DNA from: Candidatus Rokuibacteriota bacterium
GTDB lineage: Bacteria > Methylomirabilota > Methylomirabilia > Rokubacteriales > CSP1-6
Direction of reading: 5' to 3'
DNA length: 64,000 nucleotides
Assembly: GCA_036802765.1 (NCBI GenBank)
Contig: DAIRVP010000001.1
Span: 2,153-66,152, forward strand
Below the pieces are notes generated by a model. The model searched no databases. It worked only from the letters and a program-made list of their open reading frames with translations, and had not been told where the DNA came from. How positions within the stretch are numbered: position 1 is the stretch's first letter; each line of letters begins with the position of its first letter. This document shows, piece after piece, positions 24,603 to 38,563 of the stretch. The position numbers and the translations under genes were made by a program.

Positions 24603-26288
24603 ATGACAAGCGCAGAGCCCATGTACGACGTTGTCTGGCCGCTCGCCCCGTCCGCCGCACCGCCGGGATCACTCGCGGCGCGTTCCCAGGATCTTCGCGG
24701 CAAAACCGTCGGTGAGCTATGGGATTACCTGTTCAAGGGCGAGGAGATCTTTCCCCTCATCCGAACGGCGCTCGAGGCCCGCTATCCCGGTATCCGCTTC
24801 GTCGAGTTCGAGACCTTCGGCTCGACGCACGGCCGCGACGAGAAAGAGCTCGCAGCGACGCTGCCCGGACTGCTGCGCCAGCACGGCTGCGACGCGGTGA
24901 TCTCCGCCGTCGGCGCCTGAGGATCGTGCACGCCCGCCGTGTTGCGGGCCGCCGCGATCGCCGAGCGCGCCGGAGTGCCGAGCGTCTCTATCGTCACGAC
25001 ACCGTTCATGCAGCAGGCCGCGGTCGTGTCCAAGGGCGTCGGCCTGCCGTCGCTGCCGATCGCTGAGTACCCCGGCGTGCCGATGACCGACGGCTCGGAC
25101 GCCGTCGCACGAAAGATCGACGCGCTGTTGCCACAGATCGTGGCGGGCCTCGCCGGCGCCCGCGACGTCGTGCGCACCGCAGTCGCCGAGCCGGGGCCGC
25201 GCGACATCGTGGCGCGTGGCACGCTCGACGAGGTCCAGGAGCTCTATCACCGCAATCTTTGGAGCGACGGGCTGCCGGTGATTCCCCCGACGATCGACCG
25301 CGTCGAGCGCTTTCTCGCTCAAACGCGGCGCGCACCAGACGAAGTGATCGGACGGCTGCTGCCCGAGAACCGTGCGGCCACCGTCTGGAGCATCGCGGTC
25401 AACGGCGTCATGGCAGGCTGCCGGCCCGAATACATGCCGGTCCTCGTTGCTATCGTGGAAGCCATCGCGGAGCCGATCTTCCGCGTCGAGGACGCCGGCT
25501 CGACGCCGGGCTGGGAGCCGCTCGTGATCGTGAGCGGCCCCATCGCCAGGCGTCTCGACCTCAATCACGGTCAGGGCGTGATGCGTGTGGGGCGCCAGGC
25601 CAACACGAGTCTCGGTCGCTTCTTGCGGCTCTACCTTCGCAACGTCGCGGGGCTGCGAATTCCGCCCGGCGCGGGCGACAAGGGCGGCATCGCGGCCTCG
25701 TTCAACGTGGCGCTGGCCGAAGACGAAGACGCCGCTGCCGCGCTGGGATGGCCGACGTTCGGCGCGGACCAAGGCTTCACGCGCGACGACAGCGTGGTCA
25801 CCGTGCAGAGCGTGGTGAGCATCAGCCCGCCGATCTACTCCGCCGGCACGCGCGCGCTCGAGCATGCGCGCATCCTCGCCGAGGTGTTCGGCGGCGCGTG
25901 CAGCTACTGGTCGTCGATCGGCATGAAGTACGCGCGCTGGGAGCCGCTGCTCGTGCTGGGCCCGTCGATCGCGCGTGTGATCGCCGACGACGGCTGGTCG
26001 AAGGACGATCTGCGCCGTTACCTCCACGAGCACGTGACGATCACCGCACGCCAGGCCGAGACGTATGCGCTGCAGGTCGGCGCAACGTCGTTCACGCTCG
26101 ACGCCCACGTCAAGGCCGGCGTGCTGCCCGCCTCCTACGCGACGTCCAGCGATCCGGAACGCGCGGTGCCGGTGTTCGTGCAGCCGGAGAAGATCGGGAT
26201 TCTCGTCGCCGGCGATCCCGGCCGCAATCAGTCCAAAGGCTACGTCAACAACCACATTCAGGGTGGCCGCATCAGCAAGAGGGTTTGA
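24603..26288 (+). CDS. Candidate selenoprotein with a U-G-S-C motif (in-frame TGA 24918-24920) and a long C-terminal domain of unknown function
   Basis: ORFs 24603..24920 and 24939..26288 share one frame. GC3 bias is continuous through the whole 561 codons. Context reads ...HGCDAVISAVGA-U-GSCTPAVLRAAAIAERAGVPS... Confidence 0.55.
24932..24949 (+). other. SECIS-like hairpin (gcccgc / CGUGUU / gcgggc) starting 12 nt after the UGA
   Basis: Seen directly. GU in the apical loop. Confidence 0.45.
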
Positions 26289-28327: not shown

Positions 28328-30423
28328 GCTATTCGCTCGGCATCGACATCGGCGGCACGTTCACCGACATCGTCGTCTACGACCACGCGCGCGGCCGACA
28401 GTACAGCCGCAAGCTGCTGACCACGCACGACGACCCTGCGCGCGCCGTCGCCACCGGCGTCGACGGATTGCTGCGTCGCCATCGCCTGCCCGCTCGGGAC
28501 TTCACGCGCGTGGTGCACGCCACCACGCTGTTCACCAACGCGCTGATCGAGCGCCGTGGTGCCGTCACGGGACTCATCACCACCACGGGCTTTGCCGATG
28601 CGCTGGAAATCGGCCGCGAGCGGAAGTTCGAGCTCTACGACCTCAATATCGTGAAGCCCGAGCCGCTCGTGCCGCGAAATTTGCGAGCAGAGGTGCGCGA
28701 GCGCCTGAGAGCCGACGGATCGGTGGAGCGACGGCTCGACGCGCGGGAGGTGGCGGCCCGCGCGAAGTCGCTCGTCGCCGCGGGTGTGACGTCCATCGCC
28801 ATCGTGTTCCTGCATTCGTATGCGAACCCGCGTCACGAGGCCGAGGCGGCACGCGTCATCGCCCGCCGCCACCGCGGCGTGTCGGTCACCACATCGCACG
28901 AGGTCGCGCCGGAGATCCGCGAATACGAGCGGGCATCGACGACGGTCGCCAACGCGTACATCAAGCCGCTGGCCCGCCAGTATCTCGACGCGATGGCCCG
29001 ACGCGTGGCCGCGCTGGGCATCCCGGCGCCGCTGCTGCTGATGCTCTCGAGCGGTGGGCTGACGCACGTGGCCGAAGCCGAACGCACACCGGTGCAGATG
29101 CTCGAGTCCGGCCCGGCCGCCGGCGCGCTTGCCGCTGCGTTCTTCGGCCGCGAGGACAGCCGCGGCAACCTGCTCGCCTTCGACATGGGCGGGACGACGG
29201 CGAAGCTGTCACTCGTGGACGGCGGCGAGCCGCTGACCGCCTACGCCTTCGAGGCCGCGCGACAGAAACGGTTCATGGAAGGCAGCGGGCTGCCGATCCG
29301 GATCTCGACCATCGAGCTCATCGAGATCGGCGCCGGCGGCGGTTCCATCGCGTCCGTCGACGAGATCGGGCTGCTCAAGGTCGGCCCGCGCAGCGCCGGA
29401 TCACACCCGGGTCCGGCGTCCTACGGCCTCGGAGGCGCCGAGCCGACGGTGACCGACGCGGACTTCCTGCTCGGTTACCTCAATCCCGAGTACTTCGCGG
29501 GCGGCGAAGTGCGCGTCGACATCGACGCCGCGCGCCGAGCCATCGACCGGCTCGCCAAGCAGGTGGGTCTCCCGCAGACGGACGTCGCGTGGGGCATCCA
29601 CGACGTCGTCAACGAGAACATGGCCTCCGCCGCGCGCGTGCACGTCGCCGAGCGCGGCCGCGATCCGCGGGATTACGCCTTGCTCTGCACGGGCGGCGCC
29701 GGTCCGGTGCACGCGTGGGGCGTCGCGCGCAAGCTCGGCCTGCACCAGATTATCTGCCCGCCGGCCGCGGGCGTCGCGTCCGCCCTTGGTCTGCTCGTCG
29801 CGCCCGCGCGGGTCGATCGCATGGCCACGGTCGGCATCCGGCTCGACCGCGACAGTCCCGTGGCGCTGGAAGACGCGTTCCAGCGATTGGAAGAGGAGGC
29901 CCGCGCGGTGATGGCAGACACGGGACTGAAGCTCGAAACCGCGACCGTCACGCGCCTGGCCGACGGGCGGTTTCTCGGACAAGGCTTCGATCTCGTCGTC
30001 GATCTGCCGCCGGGCCCGTACATGGACAACACGGAGAGTCGGCGACGACTGGCCGACGCGTTCGAAGCGGCGTATCGCGACAAGTTCGCGCTCACACCGC
30101 CCGACGTGCCGATCGAGTTCATCAACATCCGCGTCGCCGTGCGAGCCCCGGTCGCGGGCGCCGACGTCACCGTCCATGGCGAGACGGCGGACGGCGGCCG
30201 CGCGGTGAAAGGCGCGCGCCCGGCGTACTTCGCCGAGCGCCGCGGCTTCGTCGACACCACGGTGTACGACCGTGGTCGCCTGGTGTCGGGCGACGAGGTG
30301 CGCGGGCCGGCGGTCGTCGAGGAAGAAGGCTCGACGCTGGTCATCGGGCCCGGCGGGGTCGCGCGCGTGGCGCCGAGCGGCAATCTCGTCGTGACGCTCC
30401 CCGACCCGGAGTCGCGACCATGA
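28324..30423 (+). CDS. hyuA: Hydantoinase/oxoprolinase A subunit (HyuA family)
   Basis: MSYSLGIDIGGTFTDIV... ATGA overlap. Confidence 0.85.
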   Translation: MSYSLGIDIGGTFTDIVVYDHARGRQYSRKLLTTHDDPARAVATGVDGLLRRHRLPARDFTRVVHATTLFTNALIERRGAVTGLITTTGFADALEIGRERKFELYDLNIVKPEPLVPRNLRAEVRERLRADGSVERRLDAREVAARAKSLVAAGVTSIAIVFLHSYANPRHEAEAARVIARRHRGVSVTTSHEVAPEIREYERASTTVANAYIKPLARQYLDAMARRVAALGIPAPLLLMLSSGGLTHVAEAERTPVQMLESGPAAGALAAAFFGREDSRGNLLAFDMGGTTAKLSLVDGGEPLTAYAFEAARQKRFMEGSGLPIRISTIELIEIGAGGGSIASVDEIGLLKVGPRSAGSHPGPASYGLGGAEPTVTDADFLLGYLNPEYFAGGEVRVDIDAARRAIDRLAKQVGLPQTDVAWGIHDVVNENMASAARVHVAERGRDPRDYALLCTGGAGPVHAWGVARKLGLHQIICPPAAGVASALGLLVAPARVDRMATVGIRLDRDSPVALEDAFQRLEEEARAVMADTGLKLETATVTRLADGRFLGQGFDLVVDLPPGPYMDNTESRRRLADAFEAAYRDKFALTPPDVPIEFINIRVAVRAPVAGADVTVHGETADGGRAVKGARPAYFAERRGFVDTTVYDRGRLVSGDEVRGPAVVEEEGSTLVIGPGGVARVAPSGNLVVTLPDPESRP

Positions 30424-32030
30424 GCGCGCGGCTGGATGCGGTCACGCTCGAAGTGTTGTGGACGCGCATCATCTCGGTCGTCGACGAGGCGGCCAAGGCG
30501 ATCGTGCGGACGTCATTCTCCACGCTGTCCAACGAGGCGAACGACTTCGCGTGCGTGCTGACCGACGCGCGGGGCCGCGCGCTCGCCCAGAACACCGGCT
30601 CCATCCCGTCGTTCATCGGCACGCTGCCGGCGACCGTGCGCCACTTCATCCGCGAGCTCGGCGTCGACTCGATGAAGCCGGGTGACGTGCTGATCACCAA
30701 CGACGCGTGGATGGGCACCGGCCATATGAGCGACGTCTCGGTGCTCAAACCCATCTTCCATCGCGACCGTCTCGTCGCCTTCTCGGCGACGACGTCGCAC
30801 ATGCCGGACATCGGCGGTCGCATCCGGGCCATCGAGGCGCGCGAGATCTTCGAGGAAGGTCTGCACATCCCGCTGGCGCGCCTGAGGCGCGATGGCCGCG
30901 TGGACGACACACTGGTCGCGCTGATTCGCGCCAACGTTCGCACGCCCGACCAGACGATGGGAGACATCTGGGCGCAGGTGAGCGCCAATGAGCTGATGGA
31001 GCGCCGCGTGCGGGCGCTGATGGACGATTACCATCTCGACACGCTGGAGACGCTCGGGGACGAGCTCTTCAGCCGCTCGGAGCGCGCGATGCGCGACGCG
31101 ATCCGCGCCGTGCCGGATGGCACGTATCGTTATGGCTTTCGCACCGACGGCACCGGCGCGCCCTTCGAGTTCAAGATCGCGCTCACGGTGAAGGGCGACG
31201 AGATCATTGCCGACTACACGGGCACCTCGCCGCAGCAGCCGCGCGCCATCAATTGCGTGATGGCCTACACGTACGCGATGACGGCGTACGCGGTGCGGTG
31301 CGTGCTGCTGCCGGGGCTGCCGAACAACGAGGGCATGTACCGGCCGATTACCGTCGAAGCGCCCGAAGGCTCCATCCTGAACCCGCGCTTCCCCGCCGCG
31401 GTGGTGAGCCGCGCCACCACGGGCCACTACGTGCCCGCGCTCGTGCTCGGCGCTCTGCATCGCGTGATCCCCGATCGCGTGATGGCGGGCGTCGGCTCGC
31501 CGCTGTGGGCGCTGAGCCTGTCCAGCACACGCGCCGACGGCAAGCCCTACACGACGGTGCTGTTCTTCAACGGCGGGATGGGCGCCACGCCGCTCAAGGA
31601 CGGCGAAAACGTGCTGTCGTGGCCCAGCAACATCTCGTCGACGCCGGTCGAGGTCGCCGAGCGCCAGAGCCCGCTCTTCTTCCACTACAAGCGGCTGCGC
31701 CCGAGCTCAGGCGGAGCCGGCCGCTTCCGCGGCGGCCTCGGTCAGGACATTTCGATCGAGAGCCGCTCGGCGCGGCCGATGGTGCTCAGTGTGATGGCCG
31801 AGCGCACGGCGTACCCGGCGCCTGGTCTCGCCGGCGGTGCCGCCGGCGGCTTGGGCGACGTGCAAATCAACGGTCGCCGCATCGACAACCGCAGGCAGCA
31901 CATTCTCGAGCGCGGCGATCGCGTGCTCGTGCGCACACCTGGCGGGGGCGGCTACGGCCCACGGCGGCAGCGCAGCAAAAATCTGATCGCGCGGGATCGT
32001 GCGCTGGGCTATGTGACCCGCGGCCGCTGA
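30420..32030 (+). CDS. hyuB: Hydantoinase/oxoprolinase B subunit (HyuB family)
   Basis: ATGA overlap with hyuA. HyuB signature regions. Confidence 0.85.
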   Translation: MSARLDAVTLEVLWTRIISVVDEAAKAIVRTSFSTLSNEANDFACVLTDARGRALAQNTGSIPSFIGTLPATVRHFIRELGVDSMKPGDVLITNDAWMGTGHMSDVSVLKPIFHRDRLVAFSATTSHMPDIGGRIRAIEAREIFEEGLHIPLARLRRDGRVDDTLVALIRANVRTPDQTMGDIWAQVSANELMERRVRALMDDYHLDTLETLGDELFSRSERAMRDAIRAVPDGTYRYGFRTDGTGAPFEFKIALTVKGDEIIADYTGTSPQQPRAINCVMAYTYAMTAYAVRCVLLPGLPNNEGMYRPITVEAPEGSILNPRFPAAVVSRATTGHYVPALVLGALHRVIPDRVMAGVGSPLWALSLSSTRADGKPYTTVLFFNGGMGATPLKDGENVLSWPSNISSTPVEVAERQSPLFFHYKRLRPSSGGAGRFRGGLGQDISIESRSARPMVLSVMAERTAYPAPGLAGGAAGGLGDVQINGRRIDNRRQHILERGDRVLVRTPGGGGYGPRRQRSKNLIARDRALGYVTRGR

Positions 32031-32168: not shown

Positions 32169-33032
32169 GTGGCGAGCTTGTTGCTCTCACACACGCGCAT
32201 GCTCAATCTGAAATTCGTCATCGTCACCTCTGGTCGTCTCCCCGAAGCCTACTTCCTCGCATTCCACCTCGACTCGCGCAGGCAGCAATTCGCGATCGTC
32301 GACGTTGCTCGCCCTGCGGGCAGTTATCTGAACGTGCTGCGCCGGCTGCGTCGCTCGCGCGGCGCCCTGTATGTTGCCGATCTGCTGCTGGCGCGGCTGA
32401 CGGATCGGCTGCTGACCCCGATCGTGCGGCCCACGCTACCGCCGGGCTCCAGCGCCTTTCCCGAAGTCGACGCTGGGCGCATCGAACACATTCTCGCTCG
32501 GCACCCGCACATCGAGTGCACGGATCCTCACGCGCCCGAGGTGCTCGACTTCGTGCGCACGTTCGGCCCCGACTACATCCTGCTCGCCGGGTGCCCAATT
32601 CTGAAAGAGTGCTTCTACGGCCTTGCGCGCCGTGGCGCGCTGAACCGCCATCTGGGAATGCTGCCGGAGTTCCGGGGAGCGGACTGCCCATGGTGGGCCT
32701 TCGCGCTCGAGCAGCCCGACCGCGCCGGCTACTCGATCCACGTGGTCAGCGAGCGCGTGGACGCCGGCGACGTCGTGCTCCGGCGATGTGTGGCCGTTCA
32801 GGACGAGCCTTCGTTGCCTCGTTATCTGCGCCGACTCCGTCGCGAGGCGTCGCAAGCGTTCGTGGAGGTCGTCGATCAACTCCTTCACGGTGCGCCGCTG
32901 TCCAGCGAGCCGCAGAACGGCGCGGGACGCTACTATCCGCCCGCGGGACTCGTGACGCAGTTGCGTGCGTGCCGCAGCTACGCCCGCATCCTCCGCTCAG
33001 CGTCCCTGACGCTCACCCCAAAACGCGCGTGA
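32169..33032 (+). CDS. Formyltransferase-family protein (Formyl_trans_N-like)
   Basis: ...ILLAGCPILKE... and HPS-like motifs. The start may be at 32199. Confidence 0.55.
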   Translation: MASLLLSHTRMLNLKFVIVTSGRLPEAYFLAFHLDSRRQQFAIVDVARPAGSYLNVLRRLRRSRGALYVADLLLARLTDRLLTPIVRPTLPPGSSAFPEVDAGRIEHILARHPHIECTDPHAPEVLDFVRTFGPDYILLAGCPILKECFYGLARRGALNRHLGMLPEFRGADCPWWAFALEQPDRAGYSIHVVSERVDAGDVVLRRCVAVQDEPSLPRYLRRLRREASQAFVEVVDQLLHGAPLSSEPQNGAGRYYPPAGLVTQLRACRSYARILRSASLTLTPKRA

Positions 33033-34157
33033 TGCCAGCCGCGCCCCCTCGGCGAGGCTTCGCATCTTCGCCCACGCGACGCCGGGATCCACGGCGGCCT
33101 GACCGACCCACGTGCCGAAGCCACAGTCGGTGCTTCCGAGGACACGCTCGCGGCCGACGAGCGCGGCATAGCGGCCGATCCGCTGCGCCACCAGCTCGGG
33201 ATGCTCGATGTAATTCGTTTTCGACTCGATGACGCCGGGAATCAGGATCTTGTCGTCCGGCAGCTTCACGCGCTCGAACACCGTCCACTCGTGACCGTGC
33301 CGCGGATTGGCAGCCTCGAACGAGATGGCCGAGGGCCGCGCGGCGAAGACGATGTCGATGATGTCCGCTAACGCGACGTCGTAGTGATGCGGGCCCTCGT
33401 AGTTGCCCCAGCATACGTGCATGCGCAGCTGCTCGGGCGGGATGTTGGCGGTGGCGTGATTGAGCGCCTCGACGTGCAGCCGCGCCGCCCTGCGGAACTC
33501 CGCGAGACTCAGCTGCGCGTACTGGATGTGCCGGCCCATGGCCAGGTCGGGACAATCGATCTGTAAGATCAGGCCGGCGCGCGCGATGGTCTCGTACTCG
33601 TGGCGCATGGCATCGGCGATCGCGGCCAGGTACGCCTCGTGGCTCGCGTAGTGATCGTTGTGGAAGAAGAGCGAGATCACGCCGGGCGAGGCCGCCGAGA
33701 GAAATCCCTCGCCGGCCTTCGCGCGGGCCACCGCCGTCGTGACGACCTCGGCGTCGGTCTGCGCGGCGCGCGGATCGCGCACGCTGATCGGCCCCGTGCA
33801 CGCGGGGGTCCGCCGCCGTGAGCGGCCGGGATCGCCGAACACGCGCTGCGCGAGCTCGGGGAACTCCGCGAGATCCTGGTAGACGAGCGCGTGGCTTTCG
33901 CCGCCGAAGCCGTGCAGGCGATCCTTGATGTAGGTCGCGTAGCTCGGCTTGCTCAGCTCGCCGTCGTTGACGACGTCGAGCCCGCACTCGACCTGCATGC
34001 GCACCACGTCGTCGACGGCGGCGCGAATGCGGGCCGCCAGCGCCGTCGGATCGACCGGCACCCCTTCCTCGCGCGCGAACATCATGCGGATCAGATCCGG
34101 CGGTCGCGGCAGGCTTCCGGTGTGCGTCGTGAGGAATCGCTCCGTGCTGCGCTTCAC
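32997..34157 (-). CDS. MetE C-terminal-domain-like protein (cobalamin-independent methionine synthase family methyltransferase)
   Basis: Meth_synt_2-like 386-aa protein. Confidence 0.7.
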   Translation of the reverse strand: MKRSTERFLTTHTGSLPRPPDLIRMMFAREEGVPVDPTALAARIRAAVDDVVRMQVECGLDVVNDGELSKPSYATYIKDRLHGFGGESHALVYQDLAEFPELAQRVFGDPGRSRRRTPACTGPISVRDPRAAQTDAEVVTTAVARAKAGEGFLSAASPGVISLFFHNDHYASHEAYLAAIADAMRHEYETIARAGLILQIDCPDLAMGRHIQYAQLSLAEFRRAARLHVEALNHATANIPPEQLRMHVCWGNYEGPHHYDVALADIIDIVFAARPSAISFEAANPRHGHEWTVFERVKLPDDKILIPGVIESKTNYIEHPELVAQRIGRYAALVGRERVLGSTDCGFGTWVGQAAVDPGVAWAKMRSLAEGARLASRAFWGERQGR

Positions 34158-34372
34158 GAGTGCCCTCCCAGATCCGGAATGGACAGCACCAGATGCAGCG
34201 ACCCACCGAGCTCGTTCAGTCGTCGCGGGTTCCAGCGCACGAACGCGGCGCGCTCCTCGTCGGTCAGCTCGGCCGCGCTCAGCGCGTCGGCCGGATCGCG
34301 GCGGAAGCGCTCGCGAAAGGCGGCGTCCTTCTTGAGCCGGTACAGCAGCACGTTGACGTCGTAACGGCTCAT
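34154..34372 (-). CDS. LigA-like small subunit of a class III extradiol dioxygenase
   Basis: 72 aa MSRYDVNVLLYRLKKDAAFRERFRRDPADALSAAELTDEERAAF... Confidence 0.55.
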   Translation of the reverse strand: MSRYDVNVLLYRLKKDAAFRERFRRDPADALSAAELTDEERAAFVRWNPRRLNELGGSLHLVLSIPDLGGHS

Positions 34373-35211
34373 AGGATGCACTCCACCGCGGCGAGATCGA
34401 TGCGACCCATCTCGCCGAAAAACCGAACGCGCGCGCGGGCGGGGGCCACGGCGCCCAGCAGCACCATCCAGTTCAGCAGCTCGTGCGATCCCGTGGTGTG
34501 CAGCTCCTTGGACGTGAGCGCGGTGAGGCTCGCGTGATCGCCGCGCTCCATCAAGCCCACCACGCGGCGGTCGAACTCGGGATCGGACTCGCCGACCCGC
34601 GCCAGCGACAGCTCGGGAAAGTGCGAGAGGCCACCGGTGGCGATGATGCCGACGTTCCACGGGCTGTTCGCCACGACGCGCGCGATGTGCTGGCCCGCCG
34701 CGAAGCAGCGGCGCGCCGATGGCAGCGGCGAGACGAAGCAGTTGACCCAGAAGGGCACGAGCGGCGTCATCGGCCGCTCGCCGTGCAACACGCTCAGCGG
34801 TGAGAGGAAGGCGTGATCGAGCGGCGCCGACCACGAGGCGGCGAAATCGAAGCCGGCCTCGAGGCCGTCCTCGAGGATCCTGTTGGCGAGATCCTCGTGC
34901 AGCGGATAGCGGTCGGCCAGCCCGTCGAGCGCGCGATCGAATTCGATCGCGCCCTGCTGCGCCATCCGCGACACCGAGCGGCCAATGCGCACGCACATCG
35001 CCGGCACGGCATCGAACGAGAACACATTCAGGTGATCGTCGGCCACGACGACGAGCGCGTCGGGACGCCGCGCGGCGAGCTCGCGGCCCATCTCACCCAC
35101 GACGGCGATCAGCTCCTCCACCATCCGCTTGCCGTGTGGCCCGACGTTTTTCTCGTAGTACGGCGGATGCAGCACGTGCGACATCGCCGCCGCGTAGACG
35201 ATCCGGCCCAT
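34369..35211 (-). CDS. LigB-type class III extradiol ring-cleavage dioxygenase catalytic subunit
   Basis: 280 aa. His ligand motifs. Confidence 0.8.
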   Translation of the reverse strand: MGRIVYAAAMSHVLHPPYYEKNVGPHGKRMVEELIAVVGEMGRELAARRPDALVVVADDHLNVFSFDAVPAMCVRIGRSVSRMAQQGAIEFDRALDGLADRYPLHEDLANRILEDGLEAGFDFAASWSAPLDHAFLSPLSVLHGERPMTPLVPFWVNCFVSPLPSARRCFAAGQHIARVVANSPWNVGIIATGGLSHFPELSLARVGESDPEFDRRVVGLMERGDHASLTALTSKELHTTGSHELLNWMVLLGAVAPARARVRFFGEMGRIDLAAVECIL

Positions 35212-35344
35212 CTCAGAACGTGGGGGGCCCCGACATGGCCCCCCAAATTGACCGAGCGAAGGGGCTACGCCCCCTCGGCCTCCCCGGCCAGCGCTCGTCC
35301 CGGCCCGGCAAAGCCGTGCCGGGCCTCGATCCGCGCTGCATCAC

Positions 35345-36439
35345 TTAGAACACCACGACGCCGCGCGCGACCTGTCCCGAGCGAAGCGCCGCAAAACCCT
35401 CGTTGATTTCCTCGAGCCGGTACGTCCGGCTCACCAGCTCGTCGATCTTGAGCTGACCGGCGAGATACTGATCCACCAGCCACGGGAAATCGAGGTTCGG
35501 CCGCACCGACCCGTACATCGTCCCTTTGATGCACTTCTCCTGGAGCGCCATCATGTAGGGCGTGATCGGCGCGCGAACGTTCATCGCGGCCATGCCGACG
35601 ATGACGGCGGTGCCGCCGGGCCGGATCGCGTCGAGGATCTGCAGCGTGGTGGCCTCGCCGCCGATCGCGTCGAACGCATAGTCCACGCCGCGCCCGGCCG
35701 TCAGCGAGCGGACGAGCTCCACCGCGTTGGTCTTCGACGCGTTCACAGTGTGCGTGGCGCCGAACTTCTTGGCGAACTCGAGCTTGTTGTCGAGCAGGTC
35801 GACGGCCACGATGATGCCGGCGCCGGCGAGCCGCGCGCCCTGAACGACGTTCAATCCGACGCCGCCGCAGCCGACGATCATAACCGACGCGCCAGGCTCG
35901 ACCTCGGCGCAGCGCGTGACCGCGCCGACACCGGTCGGGACGCAGCAACCGAGCAACGCCGCCTGCGGCCACGGCATCTCCTTGCGGATCGGCACGAGCT
36001 GCTCGGCGGGGCAGACGACCTGCTCGGCGAACGTCCCGATGCGCGCCATCTGCTTGATCTCGTCGCCGTTGCGCTTCAGACGGTGCGTGCCGTCGAACAT
36101 CACCCAGCGCGGGCTGTCGTTGTGGCCGTCGCAGAGGATCGAGCGGCCGATCGAGCAGTAGAGGCAGCGACCGCAGTGCGGCCGAAACGAGAAGATGACG
36201 TGATCGCCAGGCTTGACGTTCGTCACGCCGGGCGCGACCTCTTCGACGATGCCCGCCGCCTCGTGGCCGAGCACCATCGGCAGCGGCAGTGGCCAGTCGC
36301 CGTTCATGATGTGCCAGTCGCTGTGACACACGCCCGCCGCCTTGACCTTCACGCGCGCTTCGCCGGCCTTCGGTCCCTGCTGCTCGACGTCTACGACCTC
36401 GAGCCCCATGTTCGCCTTGTAGAGCACCGCGGCTTTCAT
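35345..36439 (-). CDS. Zn-dependent alcohol dehydrogenase (class III-like)
   Basis: AGVCHSD with the Cys codon intact. Confidence 0.85.
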
Positions 36440-36551: not shown

Positions 36552-37454
36552 CTAGGCGCGACGCACGGCTCGCGCCATACCGACCGCGACGCCGGCGATG
36601 CCGACGAGCTGCACGACCGCGGGCACTTCGCCGAGCACGACCACGCCCAGCGACACAGCGAACACGGGAACGAGCGGCATGAAGAGCGAGGCGAGTCCGT
36701 CGCCGAGCACTCGGATCGCCCACGCGTACAGGGCGAGCGCGACGATCGCGACACCGAGTCCCTGAAACAGAGCCTGAAAGATGACCTCGCCGCGCGGCGC
36801 ATCGAGCACGCGGCGTCCTGCGACGACGGCGTAGAACGGAACGTATGGAAGCGCCAGCACCCACACCGCAGCCGTCGCGGGCAGCGGGTCGATCCGCCAT
36901 CGCCGCGCGGCAACGGTGAAGAGCGCCCACAGCACGGCGGCCACGGTGAACAGCGCGTCGCCGAGCCAGGCGGTGCCGCCGGCGGCGAGCGCGGGCCAGC
37001 CGACGAGCGTCAGTCCGATCACGATCAGCGCGAGGCCGAGCGCCTTCGACGACGACTGCCGCTCGCCGAGCCAGAGCCATGCGAGCACCGCGGCGAACAC
37101 CGGCATGGCGCCGGTGATGATGACAGCGCCGTGCGCCGCCGGGGCCTGCGTGAGTCCCGCATACATGATGAGCGTGTACGGCCCGCCGGCGCCGAGGGAC
37201 AGCACGGCGATTCGCCGCCATGCGCGCGTGCCGTCGGGCGGGCGTCGGATGACGATCGGCAGGCTGACGAGCCCGGCGACGGTGAAGCGCAGGGCCGCCA
37301 GATCCCAGAGCGGGATCGTGCGCTGCATGCTCCAGCGCGAGAACACGAACTGGCTGGCGTAGATCAACATCGCGAGCACCGCCGCGCCGACTGCCAGCGC
37401 GCGGCGCGCTCGCGAGGGCGCGACGCTCAGCTCGACGCTGGGGGCCGGCGCCAC
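36552..37454 (-). CDS. EamA/DMT-family transporter
   Basis: 10-TM profile. Confidence 0.75.
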   Translation of the reverse strand: MAPAPSVELSVAPSRARRALAVGAAVLAMLIYASQFVFSRWSMQRTIPLWDLAALRFTVAGLVSLPIVIRRPPDGTRAWRRIAVLSLGAGGPYTLIMYAGLTQAPAAHGAVIITGAMPVFAAVLAWLWLGERQSSSKALGLALIVIGLTLVGWPALAAGGTAWLGDALFTVAAVLWALFTVAARRWRIDPLPATAAVWVLALPYVPFYAVVAGRRVLDAPRGEVIFQALFQGLGVAIVALALYAWAIRVLGDGLASLFMPLVPVFAVSLGVVVLGEVPAVVQLVGIAGVAVGMARAVRRA

Positions 37455-38563
37455 CAGATCTCGCCCGCGCGGAGCGTGAGCGCCGGGGCAAAGCGGTGGC
37501 GGCCGGTGATGTGCTGGCCGTGCGCGTCCTCGTAATCGAACGCGCCCTCCTCGAGGTCGAAGACGGCGACGTCGGCGACCGCGCCCGGCTTCAGCGTCCC
37601 CAGCCGCCCGTCGCGGCCGATCGCCTTCGCGGGATTCGTCGTGACCGCGCGCACGACGTCCGGAAGCGGCATCCCGAGGCTGAGAAACTTGCCCATCGTG
37701 GTCGGCAGGTCTTTGACGCAGCCGGCGGCGCCGCCGCTGGTGAGATCCGACGAGATCGTGTCGGGATAGAACCCTTCGGCAAACGCCGCGCGCACCACGG
37801 GGAAGTTCACGTGCATGCGGCCATGGGCGACGTCGAAGACGATCCCGCGCTCGCGCGCGGCGCGAATGTCCTTCGATACCTTGCCCTGCGCGTCGAGGAT
37901 GCCGTGGCCGCGGCCGTGCAGGAAGTGGCTCACGATGTCGCCGGGCCGCATCAGCGCGAGCAGCTCCGCGAGCGGGCGCGGCGGGTTCGTGCAGTGCAGC
38001 ATCACGCGGCCGCCGATGGCGTCGGCCGCGCGGACCGCGCGCTTGAGCGGCTCGAGCCCCGCCTCGCCGACCACCTCGATCTGGTTGCGAACCTTGATCC
38101 CGAGGATCAAGTCGGCGTGATCACGCGCGGCGCCGACGGCCGCGTCGACGTCGGCATAGGCGAGATGGTTGAGCTCGCCGACCTTGAGATACGTGAGCCC
38201 GATCGCCGAGATGTTGAGGAAGGCGAACATGCGGACGCGCGAGCGCGACATCACCCACTCGCGCATGCCCTCGAAATTGCCGGCGCCCGTGCTGCCGCCG
38301 TCCACCCAGGTGGTGACGCCAGTCGCGCGCGCAACGTCGTCGGTGCGGGGGCCGAAGTCGGAGGCGCCGGCAAAGCAGTGAGCGTGCAGATCGATGAGCC
38401 CTGGCAGCACCAGTCTTCCGCTCACGTCGATGACGGTATCGCCATCGGGGGCGAGTCCCGCGCGCACGTCGGTGACGAGCCCGTCGCGCACGCGCACGTC
38501 GAGCGCGCCAGTCAACCCCCCGCTCGGATCCATCACCTGTCCGCCTCGCAGCAGCACGCCCAT
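37427..38563 (-). CDS. Amidohydrolase-family metallo-hydrolase
   Basis: DLHAHC... metal-binding motif. Start placed at ATG 38563. Confidence 0.75.
   Translation of the reverse strand: MGVLLRGGQVMDPSGGLTGALDVRVRDGLVTDVRAGLAPDGDTVIDVSGRLVLPGLIDLHAHCFAGASDFGPRTDDVARATGVTTWVDGGSTGAGNFEGMREWVMSRSRVRMFAFLNISAIGLTYLKVGELNHLAYADVDAAVGAARDHADLILGIKVRNQIEVVGEAGLEPLKRAVRAADAIGGRVMLHCTNPPRPLAELLALMRPGDIVSHFLHGRGHGILDAQGKVSKDIRAARERGIVFDVAHGRMHVNFPVVRAAFAEGFYPDTISSDLTSGGAAGCVKDLPTTMGKFLSLGMPLPDVVRAVTTNPAKAIGRDGRLGTLKPGAVADVAVFDLEEGAFDYEDAHGQHITGRHRFAPALTLRAGEIWWRRPPASS

What the first reader, a model, noticed from the sequence alone, without database searches (positions are those of the whole stretch)
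32169..35211. LigB-LigA extradiol dioxygenase co-operonic with a MetE-C-domain-like methyltransferase, convergent with a formyltransferase-fold protein
ligB (34369..35211), ligA (34154..34372) and the MetE-like gene (32997..34157) overlap by 4 nt each (ATGA-type). Standalone MetE C-domain homologs are mostly uncharacterised. Linkage to a protocatechuate/gallate-type ring-cleavage enzyme and a folate-binding-fold protein suggests an O-demethylation or methyl-transfer step for methoxylated lignin-derived aromatics. This would be distinct from the known THF-dependent LigM/DesA type.
Basis: inference. Interest (0 to 1): 0.5.

Follow-up and report, generated by a model that had tools for sequence, protein, structure and literature searches.

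The report
Ring-cleavage dioxygenase beside orphan MetE-like enzyme
A two-subunit aromatic ring-opening dioxygenase is followed, with overlapping stop and start codons, by a zinc-type methionine-synthase-like gene, but the pairing occurs only in a narrow group of soil Rokubacteria and is broken in close relatives, so it is weak evidence for a new lignin-demethylation pathway.

Summary
On the minus strand, LigB (34369..35211), a 72-aa LigA-like subunit (34154..34372) and a 386-aa MetE-C-domain protein (32997..34157) follow each other with ATGA and GTGA overlaps. A formyltransferase-fold gene converges on them. The MetE-like protein keeps all four Zn ligands and the three homocysteine-binding residues of MetE. 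It lacks the folate-binding domain.

- Of 80 species-level genomes carrying the MetE-like ortholog (51-87% identity, many phyla), only one close Rokubacteria relative has LigB-LigA beside it.
- Of 80 metagenome loci with the LigB ortholog, LigA directly follows LigB in 78; the other two contigs end first.
- MetE-like is directly adjacent in 12 of those loci, split off by 2.3-5.4 kb of kinase or ABC-transporter genes in 6, and absent in all 25 informative loci of the 78-82% LigB clade.

The formyltransferase gene belongs to the opposing hydantoinase-type operon.

One signal keeps the idea alive. The most frequent nearest neighbour of the MetE-like family elsewhere is a VOC/glyoxalase protein (8 of 123 neighbours, against at most 2 of 148 control ORFs). 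Some of these resemble type I extradiol dioxygenases.

Best reading: two independent modules, recently juxtaposed. Interest is modest.

The parts
34369..35211 (-). LigB-type catalytic subunit of a class III extradiol dioxygenase (280 aa)
   Evidence: PF02900, 1.9e-29. Closest solved structures by sequence are MhpB 8k04 (6e-21), LigB 1b4u_B (2e-16) and DesB 3wku (8e-13). H60, the GGLSH motif and the ELLNW Glu align with LigB His61, His195 and Glu242. His12 sits in AAAMSH. All NCBIfam equivalog scores are far below their cut-offs.
34154..34372 (-). LigA-like small subunit (72 aa), start overlapping the LigB stop (ATGA)
   Evidence: PF07746, 31.3 bits against a cut-off of 25.3. It also matches NCBIfam NF038399 'NHLP clan', 45 bits against 40. 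It directly follows LigB in 78 of 80 related loci and has the same 4-nt overlap in 75 of 77 measured. The whole length is conserved up to a fixed C-terminus SIPDLGxH. There is a weak match to the LigA-like C-terminal domain of gallate dioxygenase DesB.
32997..34157 (-). Stand-alone MetE C-domain ('core MetE') protein, 386 aa, GTG start overlapping the LigA stop (GTGA)
   Evidence: PF01717, 3e-12. Zn ligands H247/C249/E281/C345 and homocysteine-binding S15/E67/D201 align with E. coli MetE. The AlphaFold model (pLDDT 78.6) best matches the T. maritima MetE C-domain, with TM-score 0.76. There is no folate-binding domain. It scores below the cut-off of every NCBIfam methionine-synthase model.
35212..35344 (-). 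Structured 133-nt spacer between the ADH and LigB genes (three GC-rich hairpins; REP-like)
   Evidence: Minimum free energy -82.6 kcal/mol, z = -2.75. The spacer is present at the same site in L094, L096, L099, L100 and L156 and absent in other relatives. Its first hairpin recurs at other intergenic sites. No T-tract terminator was found here.
35345..36439 (-). Zn-dependent alcohol dehydrogenase (364 aa), upstream partner of LigB-LigA in the close clade
   Evidence: PF08240 and PF00107. Nearest NCBIfam model is TIGR03989, NDMA-dependent ADH-like, 393 bits against 440. ADH-LigB-LigA is syntenic wherever sequence upstream of LigB is available in loci with LigB at or above 83% identity, and absent in the 78-82% clade.
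36552..37454 (-). EamA-family transporter (300 aa)
   Evidence: PF00892, 2.6e-34. Syntenic in close relatives.
37427..38563 (-). Amidohydrolase/deacetylase-family metallohydrolase (about 378 aa; the start is approximate)
   Evidence: NF006689, 378 bits against a cut-off of 371, on residues 222-590 of the long ORF. Called as 378 aa in L081.
32169..33032 (+). Formyltransferase-fold protein, last gene of the convergent plus-strand operon. The likely start is ATG 32199, which gives 277 aa.
   Evidence: PF00551, 4.9e-15, matching only model positions 56-181. The motifs LNRHLGMLP and VDAGDV resemble the Asn/His/Asp catalytic motifs of PurN; this comparison is by eye and from memory. The ortholog in L081 is 277 aa.
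28330..32030 (+). Hydantoinase/oxoprolinase A and B subunit genes (about 28330..30423 and 30423..32030), upstream of the formyltransferase gene
   Evidence: PF05378, PF01968, PF19278 and PF02538. They resemble caprolactamase but score below the cut-off. The formyltransferase/HyuB side stays next to the MetE-like gene in every close relative that has it and has enough downstream sequence.

Best explanation
Two separate functional units lie side by side.

(1) LigB plus the 72-aa LigA-like protein form a two-subunit, Fe(II)-dependent class III extradiol dioxygenase. It opens a catechol-type ring of unknown identity. In Rokubacteria this bicistronic pair is a self-contained unit. In the window's clade it is preceded by a Zn-alcohol dehydrogenase, an EamA transporter and an amidohydrolase.

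(2) The 386-aa protein belongs to a large, uncharacterised clade of stand-alone 'core MetE' enzymes. A His/Cys/Glu/Cys zinc site would activate the thiol of homocysteine, or of a very similar amino-acid thiol, to accept a methyl group. The donor is not methyl-folate, because the folate-binding domain and the folate-contact loop are missing.

The translationally coupled junction in this window is a recent, lineage-restricted arrangement. It lies at a boundary where sister genomes carry 0, 2.3, 3.1 or 5.3 kb of unrelated genes. The two genes are probably co-transcribed here (inferred from the GTGA overlap), but that does not show a shared pathway.

Shown here: gene identities, catalytic residues, overlaps, and the distribution of the linkage. 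Inferred: enzymatic activities, substrates, and independence of function.
For: - Domain identities.
- Overlaps read in the sequence.
- LigB metal and catalytic residues aligned to 1b4u_B.
- LigA directly follows LigB in 78 of 80 loci, with the 4-nt overlap in 75 of 77 measured.
- MetE-like Zn and homocysteine residues are identical in the window protein and 11 orthologs. The meaning of these residues comes from PMC7857596.
- Fold: TM-score 0.76 to the T. maritima MetE C-domain and 0.70 to MesD 3rpd.
- The MetE-like family is large: at least 594 stretches in species-representative genomes, and 1,243 cluster representatives at 50% identity with E <= 1e-30.
- Only 1 of 80 ortholog loci has LigB-LigA adjacent. 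No orthologous neighbour is shared by more than 9 of 80 loci.
- Seen from the LigB side: 12 adjacent, 6 separated by 2.3-5.4 kb, 9 with none in the sequence seen, and 0 of 25 in the 78-82% clade.
- The inserts are a hybrid histidine kinase and/or a sugar-type ABC transporter. Elsewhere LigA is followed by LeuA and PRPP synthetase genes.
- LigB-LigA at about 80% identity sits in unrelated contexts: ABM/glyoxalase, aldo-keto reductase, MacB efflux, Ldh_2, Mo-hydroxylase.
- In a sample of 44 proteins at 77-100% identity, most of whose gene contexts were not examined, the active-site columns of the MetE-like protein are invariant. Nothing in it points to neofunctionalisation.
Against: - The GTGA overlap implies co-translation with LigA in this genome. 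Twelve other loci keep the two genes within 30 nt of each other.
- Where genes are inserted, they lie on the same strand, so one long transcript is not excluded.
- The MetE-like family has VOC/glyoxalase neighbours more often than controls: 8 of 123 against at most 2 of 148, Fisher p about 0.03. These include two-domain proteins that match HpaD, catechol 2,3-dioxygenase and BphC over their full length. This could mean a real functional tie to ring-cleaving enzymes.
- No riboswitch of the kind that often controls methionine genes was found upstream of 24 orthologs.
- No activity was measured.
Confidence: 0.55

Rival explanations
1. The MetE-like enzyme is a cobalamin- and folate-independent methyltransferase. 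It removes the methyl group of a methoxylated aromatic compound onto homocysteine, giving methionine. This produces the catechol or gallate-type substrate that the co-translated LigB-LigA enzyme then cleaves.
For: - 4-nt overlap with LigA, and adjacency in 12 further loci.
- Intact Zn and homocysteine sites.
- The folate-contact loop is replaced by family-specific inserts next to the active site: low-confidence segments 87-96, 109-114 and 252-259.
- Independent adjacency of orthologs to extradiol-like VOC proteins in Rokubacteria L003, Acetobacteraceae L006, Bryobacteraceae L076 and metagenome locus L084, and to about 180-aa VOC proteins in L039, L055, L065 and L068.
- L039 also has a shikimate/quinate dehydrogenase gene next to it. 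L084 has a P450 gene.
Against: - About 90% of ortholog loci have no dioxygenase nearby.
- LigB-LigA orthologs outside one shallow clade never carry the gene.
- The junction is interrupted in sister genomes.
- The enrichment statistic is modest, p about 0.03, and VOC proteins have many functions other than ring cleavage.
- My literature searches found no precedent for aryl-ether demethylation by a MetE-type zinc enzyme.
Confidence: 0.13
2. The MetE-like protein is a housekeeping methionine synthase of a fifth 'core' family. It draws methyl groups from an unidentified cellular donor, and its position next to LigB-LigA has no meaning.
For: - All seven functional residues shared by MetE and MesD are present.
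- Sequence conservation is very high across phyla, 70-78% between Rokubacteria and Proteobacteria.
- In Xanthobacteraceae it sits in a stable core-genome context with a tRNA gene and the mmgR sRNA.
- Sources annotate it as methionine synthase.
Against: - No SAM or cobalamin riboswitch in 24 loci or in the window.
- Neither DUF1852 (MesX) nor a B12-binding family is among the 25 most frequent Pfam families of its nearest neighbours.
- Tandem or nearby paralogs occur in several genomes: L004, L034, L045, L055, L076, L080.
- It scores far below all NCBIfam methionine-synthase cut-offs.
Confidence: 0.2
3. The MetE-like protein is a zinc-thiolate alkyltransferase that is not a methyltransferase. 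It would resemble epoxyalkane:coenzyme M transferase. It would work with VOC-type or dioxygenase partners to add a thiol to an electrophile such as an epoxide, a quinone or a ring-fission product.
For: - The PF01717 fold with a Zn site.
- The about 180-aa VOC neighbours weakly resemble glyoxalase I and the FosA/FosB thiol transferases.
Against: [quoted passage not shown] This argues for an amino-acid thiol and a MetE-like reaction.
- No epoxide-forming monooxygenase is nearby.
Confidence: 0.07
4. The 72-aa ORF is a RiPP precursor of the NHLP/LigA-domain type, and LigB and the MetE-like protein are its tailoring enzymes.
For: - NCBIfam NF038399 'Os1348 family NHLP clan' scores 45.3 bits against a cut-off of 40.
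- Weak PDB matches to the LigA-domain RiPP precursor SonA.
- There is a Gly-Gly near the C-terminus.
Against: - Only two residues follow the Gly-Gly.
- The whole 71-72 aa, including the C-terminus, is conserved in 62 distinct sequences, with no variable core peptide.
- It is always coupled to LigB, and it passes the Pfam LigA threshold.
- No maturation enzymes or peptidase/exporter genes are nearby.
Confidence: 0.03

Closest known systems
Protocatechuate 4,5-dioxygenase LigAB (Sphingobium sp. SYK-6) and gallate dioxygenases DesB/GalA
   Same: Same PF02900 catalytic fold. The residues aligned to the His61, His195 and Glu242 positions are conserved. A LigA-type helical partner is present. The gene order LigB then LigA mirrors the N-to-C domain order of the fused DesB enzyme, and the small protein's best PDB match is DesB residues 319-357.
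   Different: The small subunit is only 72 aa and lies downstream rather than upstream. Scores are 54-94 bits against equivalog cut-offs of 286-837, so this is not a member of the protocatechuate, gallate or MhpB equivalog families. The substrate is unknown. Within about 10 kb on either side of the gene string I found no homologs of the downstream protocatechuate 4,5-cleavage pathway genes.
Cobalamin-independent methionine synthase MetE (E. coli, T. maritima 1XPG)
   Same: The catalytic C-domain fold, with TM-score 0.76. The Zn ligands and the homocysteine-binding Ser/Glu/Asp are identical.
   Different: There is no N-terminal folate-binding domain. The 'NGWVQSYGSR' region is replaced by a different, longer segment, and there is an extra segment after the HxC motif. 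TIGR01371 scores 29 bits against a cut-off of 930.
Core methionine synthases MesA-MesD (Price et al. 2021, PMC7857596) and the YxjG-type protein 1YPX
   Same: A single-domain MetE C-domain protein of 340-386 aa with conserved Zn and homocysteine residues. It resembles MesD 3RPD structurally, with TM-score 0.70.
   Different: Only 18-19% identity to 3RPD and 1YPX. It scores below the cut-offs of all the short methionine-synthase NCBIfam models: 84 vs 406, 54 vs 576, 40 vs 392 and 40 vs 258. Neither DUF1852 (MesX) nor a B12-binding family is among the 25 most frequent neighbour families.
THF-dependent aryl O-demethylases LigM/DesA and corrinoid O-demethylases of anaerobes
   Same: Only the proposed role, which is removal of an aryl methyl group ahead of ring cleavage.
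   Different: LigM and DesA belong to the aminomethyltransferase (GcvT) family by established knowledge. The window protein matches only PF01717. No corrinoid protein is nearby. The role itself is untested here.

Membership tests
Class III (LigB-type) extradiol dioxygenase | PF02900 catalytic domain above the gathering score | tested here: met
   103 bits against 26.3, covering residues 7-257.
Class III (LigB-type) extradiol dioxygenase | Fe(II) ligands His12, His61 and Glu242, and the catalytic His195 (LigB numbering, from established knowledge) | tested here: met
   H60, the His of GGLSH, and the Glu of ELLNW align with 1b4u_B His61, GGMSH and ELVMW. His12 lies in AAAMSH and was identified by position only.
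Class III (LigB-type) extradiol dioxygenase | LigA-type small subunit encoded next to LigB | tested here: met
   PF07746, 31.3 bits against 25.3. It directly follows LigB in 78 of 80 loci, with a 4-nt overlap in 75 of 77 measured.
Protocatechuate 4,5-dioxygenase, gallate dioxygenase or MhpB (equivalog level) | Score at or above the NCBIfam equivalog cut-off | tested here: not met
   Best scores are 94 against 286 (MhpB subfamily), 93.5 against 412 (gallate) and 60 against 837 (protocatechuate 4,5-).
Class III (LigB-type) extradiol dioxygenase | O2-dependent ring cleavage of a catecholic substrate | not testable with these tools
   This needs an enzyme assay.
MetE (EC 2.1.1.14) | C-terminal catalytic domain with the His-x-Cys...Glu...Cys zinc site | tested here: met
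   PF01717, 46.9 bits against 21. H247/C249/E281/C345 correspond to E. coli H641/C643/E665/C726.
MetE (EC 2.1.1.14) | Homocysteine-binding Ser433, Glu484 and Asp599 | tested here: met
   S15/E67/D201 are identical in all 12 family sequences aligned. The residue roles come from PMC7857596.
MetE (EC 2.1.1.14) | N-terminal folate-binding domain (Meth_synt_1) and a full length of about 750 aa | tested here: not met
   The protein is 386 aa and matches only PF01717. TIGR01371 scores 29 bits against 930.
Core methionine synthases MesA-D and the YxjG type | Family-level HMM score, or 55% or more identity to a characterised member | tested here: not met
   PRK04326 84 against 406, PRK06233 54 against 576, PRK09121 40 against 392, PRK00957 40 against 258. 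Identity to MesD 3RPD is 18-19%.
Core methionine synthases MesA-D | Linked partner that supplies methyl groups (a corrinoid protein, or MesX/DUF1852) | tested here: not met
   Neither DUF1852 nor a B12-binding family is among the 25 most frequent Pfam families of the 123 nearest neighbours. None was found among the genes annotated within about 10 kb either side of the gene string. Whole genomes were not examined.
Methionine synthase (any family) | Forms methionine from homocysteine | not testable with these tools
   This needs complementation or an enzyme assay.
NHLP/LigA-domain RiPP precursor | Leader domain followed by a variable core peptide after a Gly-Gly site | tested here: not met
   The leader-like domain matches NF038399, 45 bits against 40. 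Only 1-2 residues follow the GG or GA site, and the C-terminus is conserved in 62 distinct sequences.
Formyltransferase (PurN/Fmt fold) | PF00551 domain with the Asn/His/Asp catalytic motif | tested here: inconclusive
   56.2 bits against 26.1, but only model positions 56-181 match. The motifs LNRH and VDAGD were identified by eye and compared with PurN from memory. All equivalog scores are far below their cut-offs.

The most novel reading that the evidence does not exclude
This widespread stand-alone MetE-like family is a new kind of methionine-forming methyltransferase that needs neither folate nor cobalamin. It would take methyl groups from methoxylated aromatic compounds, or from a product of an O2-dependent dioxygenase partner, much as MesD depends on MesX. 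On this reading, its occasional pairing with extradiol dioxygenases of two unrelated folds, LigB-LigA here and VOC type in other phyla, reflects a shared pathway that couples demethylation to ring cleavage.
Probability: 0.12. Interest if true: 0.75.

Novelty: new variant of a known kind. Interest (0 to 1): 0.3.

Why it matters
If the two units are independent, as I think most likely, the locus is an ordinary piece of a Rokubacteria genome. Its main value is to flag two uncharacterised enzyme families:
- a compact LigB plus 71-aa LigA dioxygenase;
- a very large, highly conserved core-MetE clade, with at least 1,243 cluster representatives at 50% identity, that fits none of the four described folate-independent methionine synthase families.

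Identifying the methyl donor of this clade would extend the open question raised by MesD/MesX: how do aerobic bacteria make methionine without methyl-folate or B12? If the minority reading is right, it would be the first zinc-dependent, cofactor-free aryl O-demethylase. That would matter for lignin-derived carbon turnover in soil and for engineering lignin valorisation.

Tried and rejected
- Orthologous-neighbour clustering around the 80 MetE-like loci found nothing shared by more than 9 loci. The shared neighbours were an SDR, a Bug/TctC protein and Liv-type ABC components.
- Looking up source names for NCBI-derived homologs returned only 'methionine synthase' labels.
- Literature searches for a characterised member, or for any MetE-type O-demethylase, found nothing relevant.
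- The RiPP-precursor reading of the small ORF was rejected, because its C-terminus is conserved and it is constantly coupled to LigB.
- I checked whether the ABC transporter and kinase genes inserted in sister genomes have moved elsewhere in this window. They have not; only distant paralogs are present.
- A riboswitch test of a methionine-biosynthetic role found none in the window or in 24 ortholog loci. This is absence of evidence only.
- The promoter and terminator scan gave nothing usable in this 68% G+C DNA.
- I tried to match the genome loci to protein ids so that pre-annotated contexts could be fetched. There was no exact match.


Full report
**1. What is in the sequence**

The window has about 68% G+C. 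The codon-position G+C pattern picks out the real reading frames. On the minus strand there is one gene string:
- an amidohydrolase, about 37427..38563;
- an EamA transporter, 36552..37454;
- a Zn-alcohol dehydrogenase, 35345..36439;
- a 133-nt structured spacer;
- LigB, 34369..35211;
- a 72-aa LigA-like ORF, 34154..34372;
- a 386-aa Meth_synt_2 protein, 32997..34157.

All of these score above their Pfam gathering thresholds.

The sequence shows '...tcctATGAgcc' at the LigB/LigA junction and '...actcGTGAagc' at the LigA/MetE-like junction. Both 4-nt overlaps are therefore real, and the second uses a GTG start. No other start is possible for the MetE-like gene without losing its conserved N-terminal motif.

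A formyltransferase-fold gene (32169..33032, plus strand) converges on the MetE-like gene and overlaps its 3' end by 36 nt. It is the last gene of a plus-strand string made of a TctA transporter, a UGSC protein, an SBP_bac_5 binding protein, and hydantoinase A and B subunits.

**2. The dioxygenase**

The LigB protein aligns with the solved structures MhpB, LigB and DesB. It keeps the residues that align with LigB His61, the GGMSH histidine and Glu242, and it has a histidine at position 12. It falls far below every NCBIfam equivalog cut-off, so its substrate cannot be read from homology.

The small ORF passes the Pfam LigA threshold. It also passes an NCBIfam model for NHLP-clan peptides, and it weakly matches both the LigA-like C-terminal domain of gallate dioxygenase DesB and LigA-domain RiPP precursors in the PDB.

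A scan of metagenome contigs with LigB returned 80 loci. In 78 of them the small ORF directly follows LigB; in the other two the contig ends first. The 4-nt overlap is the same in 75 of 77 loci measured. The 62 distinct sequences are conserved along their whole length, up to a fixed C-terminus with no room for a core peptide. It is a subunit, not a precursor peptide. The order LigB then LigA is the split form of the fused DesB/GalA architecture.

**3. The MetE-like protein**

I aligned it with E. coli MetE, taken from the K-12 genome, and with 11 orthologs of 51-78% identity.
- H247/C249/E281/C345 fall on the zinc ligands H641/C643/E665/C726.
- S15/E67/D201 fall on the homocysteine-binding Ser433/Glu484/Asp599.
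- All seven residues are identical in the 12 family sequences aligned. The residue roles are as given in PMC7857596.

There is no folate-binding domain. The 'NGWVQSYGSR' region is replaced by a longer, unrelated segment, and a further segment follows the HxC motif.

An AlphaFold model (pLDDT 78.6, pTM 0.83) is least confident in exactly these segments. Its best structural matches are the T. maritima MetE C-domain (TM-score 0.76), MesD 3RPD (0.70) and 1YPX. Uroporphyrinogen decarboxylase is much further away.

The protein scores far below the cut-offs of all NCBIfam methionine-synthase models. The protein is a core-MetE-type enzyme of a clade that none of the described families covers.

The clade is large:
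- more than 8,000 database proteins, a capped count;
- at least 594 stretches in species-representative genomes;
- 1,243 cluster representatives at 50% identity with E <= 1e-30.

**4. Is the linkage conserved?**

Seen from the MetE-like side, 80 genome loci were recovered. They come from Rokubacteria/Methylomirabilota, Alpha-, Beta- and Gammaproteobacteria, Chloroflexota, Acidobacteriota, Actinomycetota and others. A tblastn search with the window's proteins found ADH-LigB-LigA next to the ortholog only in L001, a Rokubacteria contig at 87% identity. One further locus, L055, has a distant LigB 5 kb away on the other strand. No orthologous neighbour is shared by more than 9 of the 80 loci.

Close metagenome relatives behave as follows:
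- An 86% relative keeps ADH-LigB-LigA-MetE-like.
- A 91% relative has a 768-aa hybrid histidine kinase gene between LigA and the MetE-like gene.
- An 85% relative has no LigB-LigA at all.

Seen from the LigB side:
- In the clade with LigB at 83% identity or above, the MetE-like gene is within 30 nt of LigA in 12 loci.
- It is 2.3-5.4 kb away in 6 loci.
- It is not seen in the 1.5 kb or more of available downstream sequence in 9 loci.
- In the 78-82% clade it is absent in all 25 informative loci.

The inserted DNA encodes the kinase, a sugar-type ABC transporter, or both. In other members LigA is followed by 2-isopropylmalate synthase and PRPP synthetase genes.

The MetE-like gene always stays next to the convergent formyltransferase/HyuB side, while ADH-LigB-LigA stays with the amidohydrolase and EamA genes. 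The LigA/MetE-like junction is therefore a boundary between two blocks.

LigB-LigA at about 80% identity lies in unrelated contexts: ABM/glyoxalase/Lin0512, aldo-keto reductases, MacB efflux pumps, Ldh_2 and Mo-hydroxylases.

**5. A residual signal**

I took a census of Pfam families among the 123 nearest-neighbour ORFs of the 80 ortholog loci. The most frequent family was VOC/glyoxalase, PF00903, with 8 members.

As a control I scanned 148 ORFs lying 2-6 kb away in the same loci. PF00903 was not among the families with more than two members, so it has at most 2. Fisher's exact test gives p of about 0.03.

The neighbours are of two kinds.
- Two-domain proteins of about 305-320 aa. These match HpaD, catechol 2,3-dioxygenase and BphC over their full length but weakly, at 68-71 bits against cut-offs of about 320. 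They occur in L003, L006 and L084. A more distant member occurs in L076.
- Proteins of about 180 aa, in L039, L055, L065 (on both sides of the gene), L068 and L084.

L039 also carries a shikimate/quinate dehydrogenase gene. L084 carries a P450 gene.

This is a weak association at the family level with ring-cleavage-type enzymes of a different fold. It concerns about 10% of loci, and VOC proteins have many other functions.

**6. Tests of a housekeeping role**

No Rfam family reached its threshold in the window. No riboswitch lies upstream of the ortholog in 24 loci. In Xanthobacteraceae the gene sits by a tRNA gene and the mmgR sRNA. Neither DUF1852 (MesX) nor a B12-binding family is among the 25 most frequent families in the neighbour census.

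**7. Verdict**

The most likely reading, at about 0.55, is two independent modules that became adjacent recently:
- a self-contained two-subunit class III extradiol dioxygenase of unknown substrate;
- a stand-alone zinc-dependent homocysteine-type methyltransferase of an uncharacterised, widespread core-MetE clade.

In this genome the two are translationally coupled.

The O-demethylase reading has a probability of about 0.12-0.13. It would be of high interest if true, because my literature searches found no MetE-type aryl demethylase.

The formyltransferase-fold gene is part of the opposing operon, and nothing ties it to methyl transfer here. Overall interest is modest, at 0.3.

Noticed in passing
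window 24603..26288 (+), in-frame TGA at 24918..24920: A UGSC-family (PF24696) gene is split by an in-frame TGA that sits exactly at the family's 'U-G-S-C' motif. The translation reads AVGA*GSC. A GC-rich hairpin, GCCCGC-CGTGTT-GCGGGC, starts 13 nt downstream of the TGA. This is probably a selenocysteine codon with its SECIS element. The ORF lists and the gene calls in L081 show two separate genes.
   Followed up: partly
window 35212..35344: The 133-nt spacer between the ADH and LigB genes folds into three strong hairpins (z = -2.75). It is present at the same site in some relatives (L094, L096, L099, L100, L156), while in others the two genes nearly abut. Its first hairpin recurs at other intergenic sites of related contigs. 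It looks like a REP-type mobile palindromic element.
   Followed up: partly
window 34154..34372: The LigA-like subunit scores above the NCBIfam cut-off for 'Os1348 family NHLP clan protein' (a RiPP-precursor model). LigA-domain proteins in the PDB include RiPP precursors such as SonA. Small LigA subunits encoded next to LigB genes may therefore be mislabelled as RiPP peptides by automatic annotation.
   Followed up: yes
L003:11434-12345, L006:5019-5936, L076:6114-7079, L084:5966-6913, and about 180-aa VOC genes in L039, L055, L065, L068, L084: VOC/glyoxalase-family proteins, some resembling type I extradiol dioxygenases, are the commonest nearest neighbours of the MetE-like family in unrelated phyla. 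L003 and L006 share the gene set Liv-type ABC transporter, two-domain VOC protein and MetE-like gene, in different arrangements.
   Followed up: partly
L004:8889-9875, L034:2001-3062, L045:2070-3023, L055:13047-14201, L076:4169-5314, L080:7287-8279: Several genomes carry a second, divergent PF01717 paralog (23-41% identity) in tandem with, or near, the conserved MetE-like gene. In L076 the two paralogs flank a VOC gene and a DUF6152 gene.
   Followed up: no
L002, L005, L007, L038, L070 (Xanthobacteraceae-type loci): Here the MetE-like ortholog lies in a conserved core-genome context: a TPR protein upstream, then downstream a tRNA gene and the mmgR (suhB-class) sRNA.
   Followed up: no
P0036 (616 aa, from a 2.3-Mb contig): One homolog at 79% identity is called as a 616-aa protein, about 230 residues longer than the rest of the family. 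This is either a fusion or a mis-called start in high-G+C DNA.
   Followed up: no
window 32997..33032: The convergent formyltransferase-fold gene and the MetE-like gene overlap by 36 nt at their 3' ends. This leaves no room for separate terminators between the two operons.
   Followed up: no
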